Below are positions 1-64,000 of a stretch of 64,000 nt of DNA, one piece after another. Each line of letters begins with the position of its first letter. Within the stretch, counting starts at the first letter, position 1. Source of the stretch: a virus; IMG/VR virus record IMGVR_UViG_3300045918_000320, positions 1 through 64,000 of that record, one strand, 5' to 3'. The position numbers were made by a program, and so were the translations under genes. The notes beneath the pieces are model-generated. The model saw only the letters and a program-made list of their open reading frames with translations. It did not search any database and was not told the DNA's origin.

Positions 1-144
1 TTTATTATAAAATTTTACACTAGAAATGTATATTTAGCTTTTGATATAGATGAATTAAATTTAGATATAGATAGAAAATATATTCTAGATATTAAAGTTT
101 CAGAAGCACCATTATTACGAATATTATTTGATGTTACTGAATAA
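1..144 (+). CDS. 3' end of small hypothetical protein with the C-terminal PLLRxL/I(F/Y) tag (partial)
   Basis: Frame 1 is open from base 1: FIIKFYTRNVYLAFDIDELNLDIDRKYILDIKVSEAPLLRILFDVTE*. It converges on and overlaps the end of the minus-strand late operon. Confidence 0.7.
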   Translation, partial: FIIKFYTRNVYLAFDIDELNLDIDRKYILDIKVSEAPLLRILFDVTE

Positions 145-55331: not shown

Positions 55332-55541
55332 ATGAAATGTACTAATAAAGACGATACTTATTTTTTACAAGATAGCAGTAATGATACTTTTATTTCGTAT
55401 TTTGATTCATTAGTAAATATTTTTGGAGAATGGACTCCTCACAAATATGGAGCATTAGGTACTAGAGGCGGATATTGGGGAAACGAAATTAAAGTGGAGG
55501 TTTTTAGATCTCCTCTAATTATAGTAATATTTAAAGGATAA
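55332..55541 (+). CDS. Small protein with C-terminal tag (SPLIIVIFKG)
   Basis: ORF track plus the shared motif. Confidence 0.6.
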   Translation: MKCTNKDDTYFLQDSSNDTFISYFDSLVNIFGEWTPHKYGALGTRGGYWGNEIKVEVFRSPLIIVIFKG

Positions 55542-55544
55542 TAA

Positions 55545-55901
55545 ATGAAATTACACGAATTGGCTAAAGAATTAAACACAAAAGCTACAGAATTATTAAA
55601 AAAAGCTACAGAGCTTAACATGGAAATTAAATCTGTAAATGCTCACGTAAGCTTAGAGGACGAGCAAACTTTAAGAAATGAGTTTGGAATTGTTGTATCG
55701 GGAGGCTCGCTAATTACTCCTATTGCCTTTGTAAGACGTTTAGGATTGGATGCTAACAATATGATGAGATACGAATTAGTTGAAGCTGAAATTTGTGAGA
55801 ATGGATTTGTAGAAATTAAATCTAGAAAAGAATTTAATAGTCGTACCAGAGCATTCCATGAATTAGGATACAAAAATGGTCATTTAGAAATGGATGTATA
55901 A
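55545..55901 (+). CDS. Protein with translation initiation factor IF2 N-terminal-like domain
   Basis: MKLHELAKELNTKATELLKKATELNMEIKSVNAHVSLEDEQTLR matches the IF2_N pattern. Confidence 0.75.
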   Translation: MKLHELAKELNTKATELLKKATELNMEIKSVNAHVSLEDEQTLRNEFGIVVSGGSLITPIAFVRRLGLDANNMMRYELVEAEICENGFVEIKSRKEFNSRTRAFHELGYKNGHLEMDV

Positions 55902-56090
55902 ATGAAATTTATTTGTAATATAGCATCTTTAGTATCTATGTTTATGTTTGTAGGCTGTACAGCAATTTCATTGCTTACAGCTATTAATTTAGATTTTGGT
56001 GCGAGTATTGGCTATGGACTTTTAGCTGGTGTTCATTTTGTTCTTATGGTAATATTTGGATATATTTCTATAAAAGCTTAGGGAGTTTTT

Positions 56091-56456
56091 ATGTGGAAAA
56101 TTTTGAATAAAAGTAATGGTCAGGAATTAATATTTAAAACTGATAGCGACTTTTGTCAGTGGTATGACAATACACATTTAGCACAATACGAAAGCTCAGT
56201 AGGTGCTATGGATCAAGCTAAAGATCAGCAAAATGGATACTATATAGGTTTAGGATACTATTTAAACTATATTGATATTCCGGATTACGTATCCTATCCG
56301 CCTAAAAAAGAAGAAACTAAAACTTGTCAGCATCCCAGAAAATATTTAAATAAAATTAGCAATAGTTTAGAATTTATGGTTTGTCCGGATTGTAAAGAAG
56401 AAGTAAAAGAAGAGCCAGTAGTTAATAAAAATACTGGATGGGAATGGGGATTTTGA
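56091..56456 (+). CDS. Hypothetical protein with C-terminal Zn ribbon
   Basis: CQH...CPDC; GGGAG SD. Confidence 0.6.
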   Translation: MWKILNKSNGQELIFKTDSDFCQWYDNTHLAQYESSVGAMDQAKDQQNGYYIGLGYYLNYIDIPDYVSYPPKKEETKTCQHPRKYLNKISNSLEFMVCPDCKEEVKEEPVVNKNTGWEWGF

Positions 56457-57304
56457 AACTGTCACACTCTGCTAAAGATCTTTGGAAAACCTGCAAATAC
56501 AAATGGCATTTACATTACCAAAAAAGATATCGCTCTGTCAGAGTTAGCTCTGCATTAGCTTTTGGAAATAGCTTTGACTTAGCTTTAAACGAATTATTGC
56601 TAACTAAAGATTTGCTAAAAGCTGCAGATGTTTTCTGGAATAGCTGGGAAGAATGGAAATATAAACCACTAATTGATTTTTATAAATCTGATTTTAATTC
56701 AGATTTATTATCCAAATCAGATCTAGACGAAATTCAAGCAGTAGAGGCAGATGCCGATCTACAGGATCATTTATTAAATTGGTACTCACTCCGAGCTAAA
56801 GGTCTTAGGATGCTAGCAGAATATGATCTTCAGATCATGCCTAGCCTAGCTGAGATCATTTCTATTCAAGGAGAGTTTGAAATACCTATCCCAAATACAG
56901 AACACACTGTAGGAGGTAAATTAGATTTAATAGCACGTATTGGAGAACACACTTATATTCTAGATAACAAAACTACTAGTCAGCCTTATGCCAAAAATAG
57001 TTGTCAAACTAAAGAGCAGACAGCTTTATATGCAAGAGGAGTGCCAGAATACGATTCTAATGTAGGATTTTTAACTATAAACAAAAAAGATTTTAGAACA
57101 CAAATTTTGTTAGGGCAAGCTCCTAAAGAATTACAAGAATCTGTAATGCAAGATTTTGTATCTATGGCTACAGAAATTGATAATACTACAGAATTTGACA
57201 AGAATAAAAAAGGATGTTATTCTTTTGGTAGCAAGTGTCAGTTTTATTCGCATTGCTGGGGAGAAGGATTCAGTGAAAACATTTATGAAGCTGAAAAAGA
57301 ATAA
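56438..57304 (+). CDS. PD-(D/E)XK exonuclease (Cas4/AddB-like, 4-Cys Fe-S)
   Basis: LSHS...C near the N-terminus, GKLDL...ILDNKT, QTALY, C-terminal CxxxxxxCxxxxxC. Confidence 0.85.
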   Translation: MGMGILKLSHSAKDLWKTCKYKWHLHYQKRYRSVRVSSALAFGNSFDLALNELLLTKDLLKAADVFWNSWEEWKYKPLIDFYKSDFNSDLLSKSDLDEIQAVEADADLQDHLLNWYSLRAKGLRMLAEYDLQIMPSLAEIISIQGEFEIPIPNTEHTVGGKLDLIARIGEHTYILDNKTTSQPYAKNSCQTKEQTALYARGVPEYDSNVGFLTINKKDFRTQILLGQAPKELQESVMQDFVSMATEIDNTTEFDKNKKGCYSFGSKCQFYSHCWGEGFSENIYEAEKE

Positions 57305-57495
57305 TGAAAAGAAATAATTTACATAATTATTATACCGCCCACAGATTATCACATGATATACTATATCTATTAAAAGGATATGCACCTTGGATTACAGGCA
57401 CTTATGTAAAGTATTACGGAAAGGAAACTCACTATCTTATAGATATGGTAACAATAGATAATGCAAAATTATTAAGGATTATTTTTGAAATATAA
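57304..57495 (+). CDS. Small protein with C-terminal tag (AKLLRIIFEI)
   Basis: ORF track plus the shared motif. Confidence 0.55.
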   Translation: MKRNNLHNYYTAHRLSHDILYLLKGYAPWITGTYVKYYGKETHYLIDMVTIDNAKLLRIIFEI

Positions 57496-57664
57496 AAACA
57501 CAGAATTATATTTTATCTACAGATCAAAACTCCGATACTGTTTTACAGGTTTAAATTACTTATATGATACTTACGAAATATTAAATCTAACAAATAATGA
57601 AAAAATTTTTTTAAATAGAAAAATATTAATATCTCCTATGCTGAGAGAAATTTATGAGTTATAA
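57485..57664 (+). CDS. 59-aa protein with C-terminal tag (SPMLREIYEL); not in the ORF track
   Basis: TTG start with AAGGA SD; fills the gap and overlaps both neighbours. Confidence 0.6.
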   Translation: MKYKNTELYFIYRSKLRYCFTGLNYLYDTYEILNLTNNEKIFLNRKILISPMLREIYEL

Positions 57665-57848
57665 ATTAAAAACTAGTGATTTAGTTTGTATATTTTGGGA
57701 TAAAGATTTTGATATAGGATTTTACGTGCATCTAAATAATAAACATTTATATACTAAAAATAGTTCATTTGTTAGCAATTTACCAAAATATAAAATAGAA
57801 TTAATAAGTAGTCCTTTACTTAGAGTAATTTACACTGGAGATTTTTAA
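57654..57848 (+). CDS. Small protein with C-terminal tag (SPLLRVIYTGDF)
   Basis: ORF track plus the shared motif. Confidence 0.6.
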   Translation: MSYKLKTSDLVCIFWDKDFDIGFYVHLNNKHLYTKNSSFVSNLPKYKIELISSPLLRVIYTGDF

Positions 57849-57849
57849 A

Positions 57850-58059
57850 ATGGAAAAAGCAATAAAGACTTACAAAATCATAAATGTATTAAGTATAATA
57901 TGTTTAGCTATTTGGGCAGCAGCATTTTTATTTTCAAATAAACCTATAGAAACTATTGACAAGATAATAATAGCTATGTTAGTATTTAAGAGTATTAATT
58001 ATAATCTAAAAGAAAATGAATTTTTAGATGAGTTTAAACCGGAGGAAAAAAATGAGTAA
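57850..58059 (+). CDS. Small membrane protein
   Basis: Two hydrophobic segments; GGAG SD. Confidence 0.55.
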   Translation: MEKAIKTYKIINVLSIICLAIWAAAFLFSNKPIETIDKIIIAMLVFKSINYNLKENEFLDEFKPEEKNE

Positions 58060-58693
58060 TTTAATTTTTAAGAAAATGTCAGAAGTAATGAAAGATGTTG
58101 GATCTATTGGTAAAGACCAAAAGAATACAGCTCAAGGATTTAAATTCAGAGGTATAGACCAATTTGTAAATGCTTTGTATCCTGCTTTAACTAAACATGG
58201 AGTATTTATGGCTCCTAGATGTGTTAGAGAAGATCACGAAGTAAAAGATGTTACTAGATCTAACGGAAAGGCTGGAGTAGATAAACATGTTACTATTATG
58301 ATGGAATATGATTTCTTTGCTGAAGATGGATCTAAAGTAACTGTAGGGCCAATTCCTGCTGAAGGATTAGATTCTGGGGACAAAGCTACAAATAAAGCTT
58401 TATCAGCAGCTTTAAAATATGCTTTAATTCAGACTTTCAGTATCCCAACAGAAGATATGGCTGAAGCAGATTTAGAATCTCCAACTATCGGACAACAGTT
58501 AGTTGGGAATACCGGATTAACTACTATAACTTTAACTGATTCTTCATTTTCAAAAGGAGGAGCTGTATCAGGAAATACTGATGCTCCTCCTAAAATGACA
58601 GCAGCAGCCGCTACAGCAAAAGCAGTTGAGAAAAAAGTTAGTAGTATGCGAAAAGTAGAAGTTAAAAGTAACGATTCAGATTTAGACTTGTAG
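58052..58693 (+). CDS. ERF-family single-strand annealing protein
   Basis: IGKDQKN..QGFKFRGID...DSGDKATNKALSAALKYALIQTFSIPTED. Start 58052 (GGAGG SD). Confidence 0.85.
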   Translation: MSNLIFKKMSEVMKDVGSIGKDQKNTAQGFKFRGIDQFVNALYPALTKHGVFMAPRCVREDHEVKDVTRSNGKAGVDKHVTIMMEYDFFAEDGSKVTVGPIPAEGLDSGDKATNKALSAALKYALIQTFSIPTEDMAEADLESPTIGQQLVGNTGLTTITLTDSSFSKGGAVSGNTDAPPKMTAAAATAKAVEKKVSSMRKVEVKSNDSDLDL

Positions 58694-58717
58694 GAGTTAA
58701 AATAAAAAGGAGTTATT

Positions 58718-58921
58718 ATGCGAGTAGCAATGCTAGGTATAGAAAATGATAAAATAAAAATCGGAGCATTAGAAGAAGTGGAAACTCTGAAAAAAGCAAG
58801 AGAATATATTCAAAATGAATTGAATAATATTCCATCTTTAAAAGACTGTAAGGTAGTAGTATTTGAAGTAGAAGATGATTTTGATATGTCAACTCTTATG
58901 TTTGATGATGGGGATGAATAA
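58718..58921 (+). CDS. Hypothetical protein
   Basis: AAGGAG SD. Confidence 0.55.
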   Translation: MRVAMLGIENDKIKIGALEEVETLKKAREYIQNELNNIPSLKDCKVVVFEVEDDFDMSTLMFDDGDE

Positions 58922-59187
58922 TGACTTTAGATGAATTTATTAATGAACAAATAGAAAAAGATCCCGAAGGTTTATTAGACATGCTATTAACTATGGCTCT
59001 CCAAGAAGGAGATAAATATAGTGCAGAGGATACAGAAAAAGACTTTATGGATGCTGCAGAAAATGCTTTTGAAGTTATTAAATTCATAAATGCATTAAAT
59101 AACCAACAGCCGCAATTAGAAGAAGATACTGAAGGATTAGAAGATTTAATATTACAATCAAACAGCAATGTAAAATTGCTACATTAG
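58921..59187 (+). CDS. Acidic hypothetical protein
   Basis: Coupled ORF. Confidence 0.55.
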   Translation: MTLDEFINEQIEKDPEGLLDMLLTMALQEGDKYSAEDTEKDFMDAAENAFEVIKFINALNNQQPQLEEDTEGLEDLILQSNSNVKLLH

Positions 59188-59196
59188 GAGATTAAA

Positions 59197-59469
59197 ATGT
59201 CAGAAGTAGGATTATTAAAAGAAGCTAAAAACAAAGACAAGAACGGAAAAACTGTTTTAACAATTGAAGTTACAAATGATATTACTTTAAAAAAAGGTGA
59301 TGTTATTTTTCTAAACGATCCAAAAGATTATTTAAACTTTATTGTTAAATCTGAAAAATCTTCAGATAAGCAAAGAGCTTGGGCAGAAGGGCAGTTAGAA
59401 GGATTTGAAACTGGTAAGTTAGGATTTATTAAAAAGAGATTACAACTTGCAAAACGCAAAGAAAACTAG
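59197..59469 (+). CDS. Hypothetical protein (possible ssDNA-binding)
   Basis: AGGAG SD; recombination/replication context only. Confidence 0.5.
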   Translation: MSEVGLLKEAKNKDKNGKTVLTIEVTNDITLKKGDVIFLNDPKDYLNFIVKSEKSSDKQRAWAEGQLEGFETGKLGFIKKRLQLAKRKEN

Positions 59470-59653
59470 GAAAAAGGGATACTTTTATGTATCCTTAGAA
59501 TATTATAATAGATCATTAAAACGTAAAGTTGAAAATCCAAATAGCTATGACATATATTTTAATGATTATGATAATACTTCTAAATCGTCTACACATTTAG
59601 ATATTAGAATTTTTTATAAAGGGTTACTAAAAGAAATATTCAAAGGAGTTTAA
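59447..59653 (+). CDS. Small protein with C-terminal tag (KGLLKEIFKGV)
   Basis: ORF track plus the shared motif; immediately upstream of the AAA gene. Confidence 0.5.
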   Translation: MQNAKKTRKKGYFYVSLEYYNRSLKRKVENPNSYDIYFNDYDNTSKSSTHLDIRIFYKGLLKEIFKGV

Positions 59654-59654
59654 A

Positions 59655-60803
59655 ATGCAAGTTAAAGATTTAAAGAGAGCTATTCCATATTTATTTAAAA
59701 CTAAAATCACACCACTACTAATTGGACTACACGGAAAAGGTAAAACATCTTTTGTATCTGAGTTAGCTCAGGAAATGGATGCTAATTTACTAGTGGTGCG
59801 TTTAGGTACATTGTCAGATTCAGGAGATCTAATTGGTTTACCGGCTCACCTACAAGATTCTTTAGGTAAAGCTATAGAAACTATTTATGTAGCACCTAGC
59901 TTCTTACCAGTAGCTAGAGAAGGATTTGACAATACCAGAAAGACTGTATTATTTCTAGATGAGATTAACAGATGCCACAAAGATTTAATTCAAGCTATTT
60001 TCCAGTTAGTAGAAAAAGGTGAACAGCTAGGGCCTCATAAATTAATTAATACTCACGTAATTGCTGCAGCTAACCCAGCTACAGACGACTATTCAGTAAT
60101 GGATATTTCAGATAAAGCTTTTACAGACAGATTTTGCCACTTAGCTTTCGAGCCTAGCACTCAAGAATTTTTAGATTATGGTAAAGCTAATTTTAACTCT
60201 CCATATTTAAATTTCTTATCTAATAGACCAGAAATGATTAGAAAAAAGAATGATCTAATTATAATTGATTATATTGATCAGTCTGAAAGATCTGCTGAAA
60301 AAATTTGTAGATTGGAATTAGCAGGACTACCTACAGATTTATTTCTAGAAGTAGCTTCGGGGATAGTAGGTACTGAAGCAGCCTCGGCAGCAGTAGCTTT
60401 TTACTTAGAAAATAATGTTAAAATCTCAGGAAATGATATTATTTATAATTACGAATCTGTAAAAGAAAAAGTATTAAAGCACAATATGCCAGCATTAGCA
60501 CTTGCTATAGACGAAATTGAAAAGATACTTATTGATAAAAAAGAAGAGCCGAACACTCAGCAAGAAATTGATAATTTTATTCAATTCCTAACTGACATTC
60601 CTGCAGATCTTTGTATTGGTACTATTATTAATTTTGCTAAAATTGAATCTTGGTCTAATGATGAACTTGTAATTCAAAACTTTTACGGGTACGATTCTGG
60701 AAAAGGTATTTCAGATACATGTTCTAAATTCCTAGATTATATTCGAGAAATGCGTAAAGCAGGTAAATTAAAATTGCCAGAAGAAAAGAAAGAAGAAAAT
60801 TAA
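59655..60803 (+). CDS. MoxR/dynein-related AAA+ ATPase
   Basis: Walker A GLHGKGKT, DLIGLP, Walker B LFLDEINR, AAANP, DKAFTDRF. Confidence 0.9.
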   Translation: MQVKDLKRAIPYLFKTKITPLLIGLHGKGKTSFVSELAQEMDANLLVVRLGTLSDSGDLIGLPAHLQDSLGKAIETIYVAPSFLPVAREGFDNTRKTVLFLDEINRCHKDLIQAIFQLVEKGEQLGPHKLINTHVIAAANPATDDYSVMDISDKAFTDRFCHLAFEPSTQEFLDYGKANFNSPYLNFLSNRPEMIRKKNDLIIIDYIDQSERSAEKICRLELAGLPTDLFLEVASGIVGTEAASAAVAFYLENNVKISGNDIIYNYESVKEKVLKHNMPALALAIDEIEKILIDKKEEPNTQQEIDNFIQFLTDIPADLCIGTIINFAKIESWSNDELVIQNFYGYDSGKGISDTCSKFLDYIREMRKAGKLKLPEEKKEEN

Positions 60804-60825
60804 TATTTACAACAGGAAAAATTAA

Positions 60826-61998
60826 ATGTCAGTACAACAAGCTATAATAGAATTAATTGTTTCTGGTAATCAATTTTATGCAAGTTTTTTAGCACAATGT
60901 AATAGAAAAATACGTTACGATTTACCAGCTCCGGCTGGTATTTCAGTAACCTCTTCTATTAATTTGTATATTAATCCAACATTATTTGATAAGTTTACTT
61001 TAAAGCAACAACAAGATATTTTAAAGCACGAAATAATGCATTTAATAAACGAACATTGTGGAGTTAAACCTTCAGATGAAAATTTATCAGCAAAGCAATT
61101 AAATATAGCTATGGACTGTGCTATAAACCAATTAGAAGGTATTGAGCAGTCAGTAGATGAGATTGGCGGAGTAACTTTAGAACGCTTTAAAAAAGCTTGC
61201 AGTGAGTTTATAGAACCCGATAGTATCAAGCCTAAAATGGACTTTAGATATTATGGTAGAATTATAAAACAATGTCAGGATAAATTTGACGAAGAGCAAG
61301 CTGGAAAAGAAATAGACGATCACTCCAAAATGGAGAATGATACTGAAGGCGATTCGAGAGAAACTACTTATGGAAAAGAATTCCAAAAGCAAGTTGTAAA
61401 AAATGCTGTAGGTAGAGCTAAAAATGCTGCTGGAAATGTTGGTGGAGATTTACAAAGATTAATTGATCAAATGTTTGCTAGTAAGGTAAACTGGAAACAG
61501 CAATTAACACGGATTGTTTCTAATGCTGTTACAATTAAAAAGACTACTACTAGAACACGTTTAAACAGACGTTACGGATTGATGTCACCCGGAAAAAAGA
61601 AAGATTATGTTCTTAAAGTCGGATATGTTTTAGATACTTCTGGTAGTATGTCTTCTTATAACCTAGCCCAAGGCTGGGGAGAAATTTCTAAATTACAATC
61701 TCTATTCCCAGAAATGGAAATTATTTTATACGAATGTGATGCAGACGTTCAGCCGGGAAGAAAATTTGATAGGAAATTGAAGCCAGAAGTTAAAGGTGGA
61801 GGAGGAACAGATATGAATCCTGCATTCCAATTAGCTTTAAAAGATGGTGCTGATTTAATTATATGTTTTACAGATGGTGATTTTTACGAAAATATAGATA
61901 ATCCAAATGTACCAGTTATTTTTTGTATCGACGGTAAAAATAGTTATAGCTACCCTTTTGGTAAAGTGTTATGTTTAGGTGAGCATAGAGATGGTTGA
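60826..61998 (+). CDS. DUF2201-type metallopeptidase + vWA domain protein
   Basis: LYINP...LKHEIMH...NIAMDCAIN; MIDAS DTSGSM, GGGGTD, FTDG. Confidence 0.88.
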   Translation: MSVQQAIIELIVSGNQFYASFLAQCNRKIRYDLPAPAGISVTSSINLYINPTLFDKFTLKQQQDILKHEIMHLINEHCGVKPSDENLSAKQLNIAMDCAINQLEGIEQSVDEIGGVTLERFKKACSEFIEPDSIKPKMDFRYYGRIIKQCQDKFDEEQAGKEIDDHSKMENDTEGDSRETTYGKEFQKQVVKNAVGRAKNAAGNVGGDLQRLIDQMFASKVNWKQQLTRIVSNAVTIKKTTTRTRLNRRYGLMSPGKKKDYVLKVGYVLDTSGSMSSYNLAQGWGEISKLQSLFPEMEIILYECDADVQPGRKFDRKLKPEVKGGGGTDMNPAFQLALKDGADLIICFTDGDFYENIDNPNVPVIFCIDGKNSYSYPFGKVLCLGEHRDG

Positions 61999-62098
61999 TA
62001 AATTTATGGACAGTTATGTTGATGAATTTGTCAGGCAATACAGACGTATGAAATATAAAAATAAACCATTAATATATATTATTTACGGATTAGAATGA
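61991..62098 (+). CDS. 35-aa protein with C-terminal tag (KPLIYIIYGLE); not in the ORF track
   Basis: MVDKFMDSYVDEFVRQYRRMKYKNKPLIYIIYGLE*; overlaps both neighbours. Confidence 0.55.
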   Translation: MVDKFMDSYVDEFVRQYRRMKYKNKPLIYIIYGLE

Positions 62099-62379
62099 TT
62101 TTAAATACAGACTATTTAGAAAATATTTTTAGAGGTATAGTTCCGGGGCCAGTGATTGTAACTAAAAGTTCTGAGAGAGATGGTTATAGAATTTGCATAG
62201 TTCATCCGTTCCCTGTATTGCCTTCATATTTTTATATTAATACCATAGAATTACATAGACCAAAATCCGATTTAGTTTATGAATTAGGAATTAGAGTTAA
62301 GTTTAATTCTATATTTAAAAAAGACGTAGAAGCCTTTAAAGCACCATTATTAAAAATTATTTATGGATATAGAGAATGA
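62095..62379 (+). CDS. Small protein with C-terminal tag (APLLKIIYGYRE)
   Basis: ORF track plus the shared motif. Confidence 0.6.
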   Translation: MILNTDYLENIFRGIVPGPVIVTKSSERDGYRICIVHPFPVLPSYFYINTIELHRPKSDLVYELGIRVKFNSIFKKDVEAFKAPLLKIIYGYRE

Positions 62380-62720
62380 TGCAAACTTCCATGGACGACT
62401 ATAACTATGTATCAAAACATTTTGAAGTTGTCCGAAAAAAATATGGCACAGAAATTAACTTCACAATTAGCCCTATAGTAAACGAAAATTCTCAGCCTTG
62501 TATAATTAGTTTTTATACTTTAGTTACTGATTATTTCGGGTATATGGATTTTATATCTTTAGAGGGTATAGAATTGTGGGAAATGCTTGACAAAGTAAAG
62601 GTAATGAATTATGCTCTTACTGTGATGATTCGCAAAGCATTATTTAATTATGGAATAAAGGGATTAAAAGGAGAGAGATTATCCAAAACTCCTTTATTGA
62701 GATTAATTTATGAAGTATAA
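62376..62720 (+). CDS. Small protein with C-terminal tag (TPLLRLIYEV)
   Basis: ORF track plus the shared motif. Confidence 0.6.
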   Translation: MMQTSMDDYNYVSKHFEVVRKKYGTEINFTISPIVNENSQPCIISFYTLVTDYFGYMDFISLEGIELWEMLDKVKVMNYALTVMIRKALFNYGIKGLKGERLSKTPLLRLIYEV

Positions 62721-62955
62721 ATTTCCCGGAGAGTATATTGAGTTACTACACGAAGAAACTGGATTAATAGAATGTCTAAATTGGTATGTAAAAAATGACG
62801 ATCATCAGTTTTTACTTCTTGACAATATAAGAGATGTTAATTTACTGGCAGTATGGACAGATTTACTAGATTCTAGAATTTTAGCAGGAAAATTGTTACC
62901 AATAATATTAGGAGAGGAATATGTATCAGAGATTTACAGAAACGCAAAAAGATAA
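62710..62955 (+). CDS. Small protein with near-C-terminal tag (GKLLPIILGE)
   Basis: ORF track; the last 11 codons overlap the primase start. Confidence 0.55.
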   Translation: MKYKFPGEYIELLHEETGLIECLNWYVKNDDHQFLLLDNIRDVNLLAVWTDLLDSRILAGKLLPIILGEEYVSEIYRNAKR

Positions 62956-64000
62956 AGGTTTATTAGTTCCAGTAGGGACTGATGTATACAAATTAATGCG
63001 TAACGCTAACAAAGATTATTACACTTCATTTTATAGATATAACGATGAGCACAAAAAAGAATTCGATGCTAAAGGTTCTGTAGCTGGATTTAAAGGTGTT
63101 GTATCTGATTTGCTACCTTGGGATTTCGACAATGAATCAGATCCATCTATTGCTCAAGCAGATGCTTTAGAAATGGTTTACCGGCTAAAGAAAGACGGAT
63201 ACAAAGAAGAGAATATTAGAATATTTTTTTCAGGTATGAAAGGATTTGAGGTATCAGTACCTATTTCAGAATTGCTTACTCCGGCTGAATTAAAAAATGT
63301 ATGTTTAAATTATGCGGAAGGATTAAAAGCTGATACTAGTGTTTATAACGATACTAGAATATTCAGATTACCATTTACTAAACACAATAAATCTGGACTA
63401 TATAAAATTCCTTTAACACTGGAACAATTAGAATCTCTCAGTATTTCAGAAATTAGAGATGAAGCTAAAAGTATAGAAGGATTTGATAAGCATGAGATAT
63501 TAGCAGCTTATAAACCAGCTAAACTTACAGAAAAAATGAGACAATTTAAAGCTAAAACTCCAGAAGTAAAAGTTACTAGAGAATTATTAGAATCTATTAG
63601 TTTAGAAAATATCGATTGGGGAAAGAAGCCTAGAGATTTAACTCACGAAAAATATTTACTATCTTTAGGTTATTTCTCGCAAGGAAATCGTAGCGAGGCT
63701 TTAATTATTTTAGCAGCTACTTTAAAAAATTTAGGATGGAATGAAACTCAGGTATACTATGCTTGTAAAGCTGCAGCCGATTTACAGGCTAGCCGAACAG
63801 GCGAAGATAAATTTCCTAAAAATGAAATATACAAAAATATTATTGAGCAAGTCTTTGGGCCGAATTGGAAAAATGGTAGCTATTCTGTAAAAGATAATTC
63901 TTTATTGCAGCAATTATCTCTATTAGTTCCGGCTGAAGTGAGAATGACTTCTTCTGAGGATAATATTGTATCTATTACTGAATCTTTTGGATCTTTCAGT
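62921..64000 (+). CDS. AEP-family primase(-helicase), N-terminal part (runs off the window)
   Basis: Open from ATG 62921 (GGAG/GAGG SD): WDFD motif I, IFFSGMKGFEV motif II, DTSVYNDTRIFRLPFTKHNKSGLYKIPL motif III, QGNRSEAL. Confidence 0.8.
   Translation, partial: MYQRFTETQKDKGLLVPVGTDVYKLMRNANKDYYTSFYRYNDEHKKEFDAKGSVAGFKGVVSDLLPWDFDNESDPSIAQADALEMVYRLKKDGYKEENIRIFFSGMKGFEVSVPISELLTPAELKNVCLNYAEGLKADTSVYNDTRIFRLPFTKHNKSGLYKIPLTLEQLESLSISEIRDEAKSIEGFDKHEILAAYKPAKLTEKMRQFKAKTPEVKVTRELLESISLENIDWGKKPRDLTHEKYLLSLGYFSQGNRSEALIILAATLKNLGWNETQVYYACKAAADLQASRTGEDKFPKNEIYKNIIEQVFGPNWKNGSYSVKDNSLLQQLSLLVPAEVRMTSSEDNIVSITESFGSFS

What the first reader, a model, noticed from the sequence alone, without database searches (positions are those of the whole stretch)
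55332..62955. Ten unrelated small proteins share a C-terminal xPLL(R/K)xI(Y/F) tag and cluster around a MoxR AAA+/vWA-metallopeptidase pair
Seen, C-termini: SPLIIVIFKG (55332-55541), AKLLRIIFEI (57304-57495), SPMLREIYEL (57485-57664, unannotated), SPLLRVIYTGDF (57654-57848), KGLLKEIFKGV (59447-59653), KPLIYIIYGLE (61991-62098, unannotated), APLLKIIYGYRE (62095-62379), TPLLRLIYEV (62376-62720), GKLLPIILGE (62710-62955) and APLLRILFDVTE (1-144). The upstream parts show no visible similarity and the codons differ, so conservation looks protein-level. One tagged gene sits directly before and four directly after the AAA/vWA genes. Known: MoxR ATPases use vWA partners as substrate adaptors, and AAA+ machines often read short terminal peptides. 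Inference: a phage address-tag system in which a cohort of variable effectors is docked, remodelled, cleaved or degraded via one amphipathic C-terminal helix, either by the phage MoxR/vWA-HExxH machine or by one host or phage hub protein. Caveat: the final Y/F-E/G residues could partly reflect SD/start-codon overlaps, but PLL(R/K)xI cannot.
Basis: partly seen in the sequence, partly recalled or inferred. Interest (0 to 1): 0.9.

Follow-up and report, generated by a model that had tools for sequence, protein, structure and literature searches.

The report
Shared C-terminal tail on phage mini-proteins
An uncultivated pond phage ends about 28 otherwise dissimilar small early proteins with the same 17-residue tail, which most likely lets one still-unknown partner handle them all; no link to the neighbouring MoxR/vWA genes could be shown.

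Summary
The tail occurs on 28 small plus-strand ORFs between 55332 and the genome end, not ten. The genome is an 81.3-kb phage with a 127-bp terminal repeat.

The conserved module is about 17 residues: h-h-[KD]-x-[EKR]-h-h-x-[SA]-P-L-L-[RK]-h-I-[YF]-[GED]. It is strongly enriched (18 ORF tails against 1.4 expected). Selection acts on the protein, because synonymous codons vary as in the rest of the genome. Only the last two or three codons are also constrained as DNA. They carry the next gene's start codon (11 of 27) or its SD (16 of 27).

The protein bodies show no detectable similarity (4 of 26 in a leave-one-out test). Their narrow size range leaves hyper-diverged paralogy open.

The MoxR/vWA link rests on adjacency alone. 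The family is spread over 26 kb. Of six MoxR-carrying phage regions tested, two have a tail family.

One of these is Vibrio phage Va1. There, 72 mostly unrelated proteins end in a different tail, PE-x-[FL]-I. That makes the phenomenon testable in culture.

Earlier notes of this scan report similar tags in other phages, including the Va1 type. The reader of the tag remains unidentified.

The parts
1..144 (+). 3' end of a family member that starts at G000 81109 and crosses the 127-bp terminal overlap. It ends APLLRILFDVTE.
55332..55541 (+). Family member, 69 aa, tail SPLIIVIFKG. The next start is 15 nt after the F codon, with an AAAGGA SD inside the K-G codons.
57304..57495 (+). Family member, 63 aa, tail AKLLRIIFEI. 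The TTG start of the next member lies in the F-E codons, and the L-R codons spell AAGGA.
57485..57664 (+). Family member, 59 aa (TTG start), tail SPMLREIYEL. The ATG of the next member lies in the Y-E codons.
57654..57848 (+). Family member, 64 aa, tail SPLLRVIYTGDF. The next start is 19 nt after the Y codon, with GGAG in the tail extension.
59447..59653 (+). Family member, 68 aa (TTG start, uncertain), tail KGLLKEIFKGV. It lies directly upstream of the MoxR gene, whose SD (AAAGGAG) sits in its last codons.
59655..60803 (+). MoxR-type AAA+ ATPase, 382 aa. It is context only and is not shown to belong to the tail system.
   Evidence: AAA_5, 37.3 bits against a cut-off of 22; phrog_1297, E 3e-42
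60826..61998 (+). Metallopeptidase-vWA protein, 390 aa (HEIMH; MIDAS DTSGS). It is context only and its own C-terminus has no tail motif.
   Evidence: DUF2201_N 50.6 bits, DUF2201 56.3 bits; phrog_1314, E 3e-59
61979..62098 (+). Minimal family member, 39 aa from the GTG at 61979 (35 aa from the ATG at 61991), tail KPLIYIIYGLE. It overlaps the end of the vWA gene.
62095..62379 (+). Family member, 94 aa, tail APLLKIIYGYRE. In the model the tail is helix 72-81, then A-P, then helix 84-89.
62376..62720 (+). Family member, 114 aa, tail TPLLRLIYEV. The ATG of the next member lies in the Y-E codons.
62710..62955 (+). Family member, 81 aa. The motif GKLLPIILGE lies 14 aa before the stop, and the ORF overlaps the primase-helicase start at 62921.
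62921..64000 (+). Start of the primase-helicase gene (650 aa, ends at G000 64873). It served as the anchor for finding relatives.

Best explanation
About 28 small early proteins (38-114 aa, median about 67) of this phage carry one conserved C-terminal module of about 17 residues. The models give it as a short helix or strand, an [SA]-Pro break, and a two-turn amphipathic helix L-L-[RK]-h-I-[YF]. The rest of each protein has diverged beyond recognition.

The module is kept by selection on the amino acids. Its most likely role is a common handle, through which one partner protein of the phage or the host binds, localises, remodels or degrades the whole cohort. The variable bodies would provide different activities or targets. 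This role is inferred; no binding was shown.

A second layer sits on top of the first. The last codons of the module, and the 0-4 residues after it, also encode the start codon or SD of the next cistron. The genes are therefore translationally chained, and the residues after the Y/F are dictated by RNA needs. This layer is shown by the sequence.

MoxR/vWA is only one of about 20 candidates specific to this phage.
For: Enrichment and strand/region restriction.

Module extent.

Protein-level constraint:
- Codon identity among identical-residue pairs equals the expectation at -10..+3.
- Codon frequencies in the motif match genome usage, for example TTA in 17 of 25 Leu codons against 0.67 genome-wide.

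The core is equally conserved whether or not the next start overlaps it. Leu0 is present in 9 of 10 and 17 of 18 members, and Ile4 in 10 of 10 and 15 of 18.

DNA-level excess occurs only at two places:
- I4/Y5, when the next start overlaps: 65 vs 43.1.
- G6, otherwise: 26 vs 11.9.

The ORFs are maintained:
- The chance that 50 codons stay open at this composition is 0.009.
- The in-frame codon score is 0.44 per codon, against 0.55 for 38 other small genes.

The bodies are not detectably related:
- One significant blastp pair.
- 4 of 26 members beat 95% of shuffles in leave-one-out HMM tests.

Both AF2 models are low in confidence overall but best at the tail, which comes out helical around the Pro.

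There is an independent parallel. In Vibrio phage Va1, 72 of 970 ORFs end in PE.[FLMI][IVLF], against 0.14 in shuffles. Their bodies fall into 70 blastp clusters, the tail is not overlapped by a next start, and sizes run from 58 to 379 aa, including a nucleotidyltransferase-like protein.
Against: - No partner is identified and nothing about binding is measured.
- No data on expression or translation exist.
- The members have a narrow size range: 23 of 28 are 54-82 aa. One clear paralogous pair exists and junction DNA is repeated. All this fits a tandemly duplicated, fast-diverging single family, in which the tail could be a structural core or an oligomerisation helix rather than an address on independent effectors.
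- The tail lies at a variable distance from the C-terminus: 1-4 aa in 22 of 28 members and 7-14 aa in 6. That argues against readers that need a free terminal carboxylate.
- The family is confined to one phage lineage. Only one outside homologue exists, and it is about 90% identical to one member (my reading of the two sequences). Co-evolution with a reader therefore cannot be tested.
Confidence: 0.45

Rival explanations
1. One tandemly amplified, fast-diverging paralogous family. All members descend from one small gene of about 65 aa. The C-terminal helix pair is the functional or structural core, for example an oligomerisation element or the part that contacts a single host target. The N-terminal part is a fast-drifting or diversifying scaffold. 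Under this reading the tail is not an address tag placed on unrelated effectors.
For: - Narrow size range and a common layout.
- Tandem arrays of 2-6 members.
- One significant paralogous pair, 77862 and 79322: 38% identity, E 6e-7.
- Repeated junction DNA of 33-43 nt at 73-85% identity (families D1 and D3).
- A perfect 24-nt repeat that brackets a minimal member, which points to recent rearrangement.
- The members fill slots between genes that are syntenic with relative G001, which lacks them.
Against: - No residual similarity outside the module: information content is at null level upstream of -10, and 22 of 26 members fail the leave-one-out test.
- In the Va1 parallel the tail sits on proteins of 58-379 aa with different PHROG matches. 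A tail can therefore be shared by truly unrelated bodies.
Confidence: 0.3
2. One reading: the phage MoxR AAA+ ATPase and its vWA-HExxH partner read the tail and then dock, remodel or cleave the cohort.
For: - One member lies directly before the pair and four directly after it.
- The pair and these five members occupy one slot of 4.2 kb. In relative G001 the same slot is about 0.55 kb, and G001 has neither the pair nor the family.
- The vWA domain has an intact MIDAS motif and an HExxH motif.
- Va1 has homologues of both proteins as well as a tail family. Tailed genes directly follow its MoxR gene (29648, 30797) and its vWA gene (179375-180668).
- In print, vWA MIDAS sites bind extended peptides (PMC7159879, passages read). 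The NorD C-terminus contacts the NorQ MoxR ring (PMC13036017, abstract and passages read).
Against: - 23 of 28 members lie elsewhere, next to many other genes.
- Four of six MoxR-carrying phage regions tested show no tail family.
- In Va1 about a fifth of the ORFs are tailed, so adjacency is expected by chance.
- Neither vWA protein carries the tail.
- For jumbo phages this pair has been proposed to act in virion assembly (PMC7824862, passage read).
Confidence: 0.08
3. The element is mainly about translation. The mini-ORFs act as ribosome relays, and their last codons are kept because they build the SD and start of the next cistron. Alternatively, the nascent tail acts inside the ribosome at termination or re-initiation. 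The protein products themselves would matter little.
For: - In 11 of 27 members the next start sits 1 nt into the Y/F codon. In 16 of 27 it lies 7-28 nt downstream, behind a GGA/GGAG in the tail extension (with two rows corrected).
- AGG makes up 3 of 8 Arg codons, against 0.05 genome-wide. GGA makes up 8 of 9 Gly codons, against 0.50.
- Codon identity is in excess at exactly those positions.
- The bodies look unconstrained.
Against: - Columns -10..+3 show no DNA-level constraint, although their amino acids are the most conserved.
- The core is kept equally well where the next start is up to 28 nt away.
- About 50 extra codons per relay would be costly in a phage, yet all 28 stay open.
- The Va1 tails are followed by 8-25 nt gaps with no overlap.
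- The variable distance from motif to stop fits poorly with a fixed geometry in the ribosome exit tunnel.
Confidence: 0.1
4. The tail is a degron. It delivers the early mini-proteins to a host or phage protease or unfoldase, so that they are removed on schedule. This is a special case of the docking reading.
For: - The tail is exposed, hydrophobic and amphipathic, and it marks a cohort of early genes.
- The phage also encodes a ClpP-family protein (G000 77061-77834) and a small HExxH lipoprotein (76511-77017) among the family genes.
Against: - The ClpP-like protein starts with a signal-peptide-like N-terminus (seen in the sequence). It is shared with G001, which has no tails.
- The tail is not at the extreme C-terminus.
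- Nothing is known about stability.
Confidence: 0.07

Closest known systems
Short C-terminal tails that dock several different phage proteins on one hub (T4 polymerase and late-transcription proteins on the gp45 clamp; acidic tails of T7 gp2.5 and gp4 on the polymerase). Recalled, not read here.
   Same: A short C-terminal peptide with hydrophobic or aromatic residues is shared by otherwise different proteins of one phage and is read by one partner.
   Different: Those cases involve a handful of proteins with known functions and a known hub. Here there are about 28 tiny proteins of unknown function and no identified hub. The tail is not strictly terminal, and this phage has a family A polymerase with no clamp gene identified. 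In Va1 the polymerase, RNase H and helicase end differently from the tail family.
T4 internal proteins with a common capsid-targeting sequence (recalled)
   Same: Hypervariable, small, probably anti-host proteins share a short conserved address peptide.
   Different: That tag is N-terminal, is cut off by the prohead protease, and sits on late-packaged proteins. Here the tag is C-terminal and the genes lie in the early/replication arm.
Docking of the vWA protein NorD on the MoxR ring NorQ by a pore finger and its C-terminus (PMC13036017, abstract and passages read); vWA MIDAS sites binding extended peptides (PMC7159879, passages read)
   Same: These cases show that MoxR/vWA machines can read short peptides, including a C-terminus.
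   Different: That is a one-to-one contact between chaperone and cochaperone. Nothing here ties the tail to the MoxR/vWA pair beyond adjacency.
Translational coupling of overlapping cistrons, with the SD and start inside the upstream gene
   Same: The last codons of the module carry the next gene's start (11 of 27) or are followed by its SD (16 of 27).
   Different: Coupling explains only columns +2 and +4 to +8. It does not explain the amino-acid conservation at -10 to +1.
The PE-x-[FL]-I tail family of Vibrio phage Va1 and its relatives. I found no description in print (listings only).
   Same: It is a genome-specific C-terminal tail of 10-13 residues with a conserved Pro, placed on many small early proteins with unrelated bodies. 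It is conserved at protein level.
   Different: The sequence differs and the tail is strictly terminal. There are 72 members of 58-379 aa, no overlap with the next start, and the host is cultured.
Poxvirus ankyrin proteins with a C-terminal PRANC/F-box-like motif (recalled)
   Same: A viral multigene family combines variable target-binding bodies with one conserved C-terminal docking element for a host hub.
   Different: It is eukaryotic, the domains are larger, and the hub is known.

Membership tests
MoxR-class AAA+ ATPase (for 59655-60803) | An AAA_5/MoxR-type ATPase domain scoring above the curated threshold | tested here: met
   Pfam AAA_5 scores 37.3 bits against a cut-off of 22, and AAA scores 38 bits against 21.2. 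phrog_1297 matches at E 3.2e-42. tblastn hits are annotated as MoxR-like ATPase.
MoxR-class AAA+ ATPase (for 59655-60803) | An adjacent vWA-domain partner gene | tested here: met
   The gene at 60826-61998 carries DUF2201 (vWA-like) at 56.3 bits against a cut-off of 26.4.
Phage metallopeptidase-vWA cochaperone (DUF2201_N + DUF2201; for 60826-61998) | Both domains score above their cut-offs, and the HExxH and MIDAS DxSxS motifs are present | tested here: met
   DUF2201_N scores 50.6 bits against 23.2, and DUF2201 scores 56.3 bits against 26.4. HEIMH and DTSGS were found.
Single paralogous protein family (the 28 mini-proteins) | Detectable sequence similarity outside the shared tail | tested here: not met
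   Among bodies lacking the tail, blastp gives one pair below E 1e-3. In leave-one-out HMM tests, 4 of 26 members beat 95% of shuffles, with a median z of 0.17. Information content is at null level upstream of -10. Hyper-divergence is not excluded.
Single paralogous protein family (the 28 mini-proteins) | A match to a described family (Pfam, PHROGs) | tested here: not met
   All 28 members were scanned against PHROGs and 8 of the 28 against Pfam. No member has a hit at E of 0.001 or better.
Extreme-C-terminus degrons or PDZ-type ligands | The motif ends at the free C-terminal carboxylate | tested here: not met
   The motif ends 1-4 residues before the stop in 22 of 28 members and 7-14 residues before it in 6 of 28.
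Clamp-binding terminal peptides | A match to the bacterial clamp-binding consensus (recalled: begins with Gln), or sharing of the tail with the phage's own replisome proteins | tested here: inconclusive
   No Gln is conserved in the module. The primase, polymerase and exonuclease of G000 do not end in the tail. The host clamp is unknown, and the consensus was recalled, not taken from a call.
Translationally coupled overlapping cistrons | The next start lies at or before the upstream stop, with an SD-like run 5-10 nt upstream and DNA-level constraint at those bases | tested here: met
   The next start is 1 nt into the Y/F codon in 11 of 27 members and 7-28 nt after it in 16 of 27 (corrected). 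Codon identity is in excess only at I4/Y5 (65 vs 43.1) and G6 (26 vs 11.9).
Address/docking tag read by a common partner | A demonstrated common binding partner | not testable with these tools
   No partner is identified. This needs pull-down or two-hybrid work.

The most novel reading that the evidence does not exclude
Genome-specific C-terminal address tails may be a general, undescribed way for large and medium phages to organise a cohort of early proteins. Each lineage would evolve its own tail (LL[RK]xI[YF] here, PE-x-F-I in Va1), and one reader would gather, activate or clear all tailed proteins.
Probability: 0.1. Interest if true: 0.9.

Novelty: new variant of a known kind. Interest (0 to 1): 0.65.

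Why it matters
About 7% of this phage genome is spent on tiny genes whose only conserved part is a shared tail. In Vibrio phage Va1, 72 ORFs end in such a tail. That is strong selection on something nobody has explained.

It would also give a portable tag for directing proteins during infection. Because the Va1 family sits in a cultured phage-host pair, the question can be taken to the bench directly.

Tried and rejected
Co-folding. The vWA-peptidase, MoxR and one member (alignment A2) gave 'no answer' (score 0.01 against a mark of 0.32). This is no evidence either way.

RNA and population data. No RNA holder was listed. The two DNA runs (pond and wetland) may be the source samples. Laying their contigs gave an identical source contig. 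In the second run, identical contigs cover only L019 1-7193 and 18665-20000, so no usable polymorphism for dN/dS was obtained.

Search for relatives carrying the family.
- With the vWA protein in viral contigs: none.
- With the primase in viral contigs and metagenomes: five loci at 51-59% identity, none with the family.
- A degenerate DNA pattern for P-L-L-[KR]-I-I-Y-G in viral contigs: 7 stretches, all outside proper ORF ends or single, taken as chance.
- tblastn of a 25-aa tail against phage records: no match.
- Family profile against 5.8 billion proteins: 7 hits, of which 6 are the phage's own and 1 is a close orthologue.
- Family profile against 1.84 billion representatives: 17 hits. Fifteen are the phage's own, one is the same orthologue, and one is a 1015-aa protein that I did not inspect.

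Other attempts.
- ESM Atlas look-alikes scored 0.81, which is chance level.
- The promoter and terminator scan of 54.5-64 kb was no better than shuffles.
- No fold search was run, because both models have a mean pLDDT of about 60.
- Literature searches for a described tail family gave nothing relevant. I saw listings only. Supplementary files were not opened and could hold gene tables that mention such endings.

Readings rejected.
- A DNA repeat or recombination site as the cause of the conservation. Codon identity is at expectation, and the longest junction repeats are 33-43 nt at 73-85% identity.
- A clamp-binding tail in Va1. Its polymerase, RNase H and helicase end differently.

Caveat. 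The regex used was written after seeing the motif. The motif-free test covers that weakness.

Full report
**What is there**

The window is the first 64 kb of an 81,292-bp virus record. Its ends overlap by 127 bp, and it is rated complete with direct terminal repeats. Structural genes lie on the minus strand up to about 39 kb. A plus-strand early/replication arm runs from about 40 kb to the end.

A scan of the whole genome gives 28 plus-strand ORFs with the same ending:
- Nine lie inside the finding's coordinates.
- Eighteen lie beyond the window: G000 64870, 65079, 66238, 74022, 74771, 74874, 75889, 76022, 77862, 78485, 78671, 78920, 79322, 79512, 79669, 79865, 80037 and 80221.
- One starts at 81109 and ends at window 144.

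The members are 38-114 aa long, and 23 of 28 are 54-82 aa. By my sum of the lengths they total about 5.8 kb, or 7% of the genome. They occur singly or in tandem runs of two to six.

**More than chance**

The pattern [LM][LIM]xxI[YF] occurs in the last 12 residues of 18 of 382 six-frame ORFs of at least 30 aa. Within-protein shuffles gave 1.43 +/- 1.20 (1000 shuffles, max 7). All 18 are among the 78 plus-strand ORFs from 55 kb on. None is among the 141 earlier plus-strand ORFs or the 163 minus-strand ORFs.

That pattern was written after seeing the motif, so I added a motif-free test. It counts pairs of tails of genes of 150 aa or less that share an 8-residue window scoring at least 22 in BLOSUM62. 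The count is 91, against 8.8 +/- 2.9 in shuffles.

Anchoring all 28 on the first Leu shows which columns are conserved. They are -9, -8, -6, -5, -4, -3, -2 (S/A/G), -1 (P in 15 of 28), 0 (L 26, M 2), +1 (L 19, I 6), +2 (R 9, K 8), +3, +4 (I 25), +5 (Y 15, F 9) and +6 (G 10, E 6, D 4). Upstream of -10 the columns are at null level.

**Protein or DNA?**

Codon frequencies in the motif follow genome usage:
- TTA makes up 17 of 25 Leu codons at column 0, against 0.67 genome-wide.
- Pro is written CCT 8, CCA 5 and CCG 1.
- Ser is written with both TCN and AGY codons.

Among pairs of members with the same residue, the same codon is used as often as expected at three column blocks. The counts are 230 vs 234.5 at -10..-3, 308 vs 323.7 at -2..+1, and 86 vs 95.9 at +2..+3.

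An excess appears only at two places:
- I4/Y5, in members whose successor starts there: 65 vs 43.1.
- The Gly at +6, in the others: 26 vs 11.9, nearly always GGA.

AGG is also over-used for Arg, at 3 of 8 against 0.05 genome-wide. The core is therefore under amino-acid selection, and only its 3' edge is also an RNA signal.

**The dual-coding layer**

In 10 of 27 members the next gene's ATG or TTG begins one base into the Y/F codon. An eleventh case is the TTG ORF at 80402, which my gene map had dropped.

In the other 16 the next start lies 7-28 nt further on, usually across the stop, behind GGA/GGAG in the residues after Y/F. The row for 75889 was corrected with the start implied by the outside orthologue.

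This layer explains the G/E/D after the aromatic residue and part of the R/K preference. R/K is present in 8 of 10 members where the start overlaps and in 9 of 18 elsewhere.

It does not explain Leu0, Leu1, Ile4 or the upstream columns, which are equally conserved in both groups. I agree for the 3' edge only.

**Are the bodies related, and are they genes?**

With the tail removed, blastp finds one significant pair, 77862 and 79322 (E 6e-7). Leave-one-out profile tests detect 4 of 26 members at the 5% level, with a median z of 0.17.

No member matches Pfam or PHROGs at E of 0.001 or better. Eight of the 28 were scanned in Pfam and all 28 in PHROGs.

The ORFs are nevertheless maintained. At this composition 50 codons stay open by chance with probability 0.009. 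The in-frame codon score of the bodies is 0.44 per codon, against 0.55 for 38 other small genes. That comparison favours any open frame, because stop codons count against the other frames.

Junction DNA is weakly repeated between some members (33-43 nt at 73-85% identity). A perfect 24-nt repeat brackets the 38-aa minimal member at G000 74771. Duplication and rearrangement therefore go on in this family.

**Distribution**

The family profile finds 29 places in the phage's own genome. This is a positive control, and the profile was trained on these sequences.

It finds nothing in G001, a 95%-complete relative that is syntenic with 40-58% identical core proteins. G001 also lacks MoxR and the vWA protein. 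Four metagenome loci with 51-59% identical primases show no family either.

In 5.8 billion and in 1.84 billion proteins, the only outside hit is a 64-aa JGI protein. By my reading of the two sequences it is about 90% identical to member 76022. The phage DNA itself is held by a pond run and a wetland run.

**The MoxR/vWA link**

One is a MoxR-type AAA+ ATPase. The other is a DUF2201_N/DUF2201 metallopeptidase-vWA protein with HEIMH and a DTSGS MIDAS motif. This pair is already described for phages, where a role in virion assembly and processing was proposed (PMC7824862, passage read).

One family member precedes the pair and four follow it. All seven genes lie in a 4.2-kb slot that is about 0.55 kb in G001.

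However, 23 of 28 members lie elsewhere: after the exonuclease, before the primase, ThyX and the DNA polymerase, and in the 74-81 kb block with a dNMP kinase, a ClpP-family protein and others.

I applied the motif-free statistic to regions of about 23-41 kb around the MoxR gene of five other phages, and to two controls:

| Region | Observed pairs | Shuffle mean |
|---|---|---|
| Va1 (MoxR present) | 34 | 3.9 +/- 2.1 |
| CRP-7 (MoxR present) | 1 | 0.8 |
| BpSp (MoxR present) | 4 | 1.3 (max 4) |
| S-TIM5 (MoxR present) | 3 | 1.7 |
| PAC2 (MoxR present) | 1 | 1.1 |
| G001, whole genome (no MoxR) | 16 | 12.3 |
| T4 1-50 kb (no MoxR) | 3 | 2.9 |

In BpSp the linked tails include members of an annotated tryptophan-repeat gene family.

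So 2 of 6 MoxR-carrying phages and 0 of 2 without MoxR have a tail family. This neither supports nor refutes the link.

**A second case**

In Vibrio phage Va1 (MK387337.2, T4-like, 194.9 kb), 72 of 970 six-frame ORFs of at least 40 aa end in PE.[FLMI][IVLF]. Shuffled tails gave 0.14 (max 3). All 72 are on the plus strand, 58-379 aa long, with a median of 105.

- With the last 25 residues removed, the bodies fall into 70 blastp clusters.
- Ten were scanned against Pfam and ten against PHROGs, nine of them in both. None matched Pfam. Two matched PHROGs, each a different set, and one of those sets includes a nucleotidyltransferase family.
- Codons vary, and the tails are followed by gaps of 8-25 nt, not by overlapping starts.
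- Conservation covers about -13 to -1, again with a Pro five residues from the end, preceded by h-x-x-h-[KR].
- Va1 has homologues of the MoxR, vWA-peptidase and ClpP genes.
- Its polymerase, RNase H, helicase and gp32 end differently, so the tail is not its clamp-binding peptide.

**Structure**

Two AF2 models built on the family alignments are poor overall, with mean pLDDT of 60 and 61. They are best at the tail (blocks of 72-80). One gives strand 48-51, helix 52-55 and helix 58-63. The other gives helix 72-81, a break at A-P, and helix 84-89.

On a helical wheel, Leu0, Leu1, Ile4 and Tyr5 fall on one face and R/K on the other. This is my inference.

**Reading**

- Shown: a protein-level, lineage-specific 17-residue C-terminal module on 28 maintained mini-ORFs, with its 3' edge doubling as the next cistron's initiation region.
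- Inferred, at 0.45: the module is a common handle for one partner.
- Main rival, at 0.3: a fast-diverging tandem family whose tail is the core of the protein itself.
- Translation-only reading: 0.1.
- MoxR/vWA-specific reading: 0.08.
- Degron reading: 0.07.

**Compared with what is known**

Shared terminal peptides read by one hub are established for a few phage replication and transcription proteins and for T4 internal proteins (recalled). MoxR/vWA machines can read peptides (PMC7159879, PMC13036017).

What differs here is the scale: a fifth of the small genes carry the tail. The tail is also specific to its lineage, the bodies are tiny and hypervariable, and no reader is known.

I found no description in print (listings only; supplements not seen). 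Earlier notes of this scan describe comparable tails in several other phages. The phenomenon is therefore recurrent, and this is a further, well-documented instance of it.

Noticed in passing
L021-L025 (Vibrio phage Va1, MK387337.2), e.g. L021 376-1620, 14463-15629, 39399-40139: 72 of 970 ORFs of at least 40 aa end in PE.[FLMI][IVLF]-COOH, and their bodies are unrelated (70 blastp clusters). This is a second, different genome-specific C-terminal tail family, in a cultured T4-like phage that also has MoxR, vWA-peptidase and ClpP homologues.
   Followed up: partly
L001 10754-10777 and 10857-10880 (G000 74754-74777 and 74857-74880): A perfect 24-nt direct repeat, containing an SD-like run and a GTG start, brackets 79 nt that encode little more than the tail of the 38-aa minimal member. 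It looks like a recent insertion or rearrangement at a gene junction.
   Followed up: partly
L019 15219-16539 (G000 76511-77834): Among the family genes lie two proteins. One is a 168-aa protein with a lipoprotein-like N-terminus and weak HExxH metallopeptidase matches. The other is a 257-aa ClpP-family protein with a signal-peptide-like N-terminus. The ClpP-like gene is shared with relative G001.
   Followed up: no
L019 7194-18664 (G000 about 68.5-80 kb): In the wetland run, identical contigs cover both flanks, but no long contig was listed across this stretch, which holds most family members. This may be an assembly break or a variable region between samples.
   Followed up: no
L003 14874-15071, L012 13698-13850, L013 3361-3525, L014 1761-1955: In the relatives found by primase similarity, several small ORFs end in h-h-h-G-W-L or L-G-S-L. 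Two are clearly orthologues, but two have different N-termini. This is possibly a small tail motif of that lineage.
   Followed up: no
window 58896-59168 (-) against 58921-59187 (+): A 90-aa minus-strand ORF lies antisense to an acidic 88-aa plus-strand ORF. The minus-strand product is Ser-rich and looks like an antisense artefact.
   Followed up: no
L019 7520-8035 (G000 68812-69330): An HNH_3/NUMOD4 homing-endonuclease-like gene lies directly after the family A DNA polymerase gene. It has no match in relative G001.
   Followed up: no
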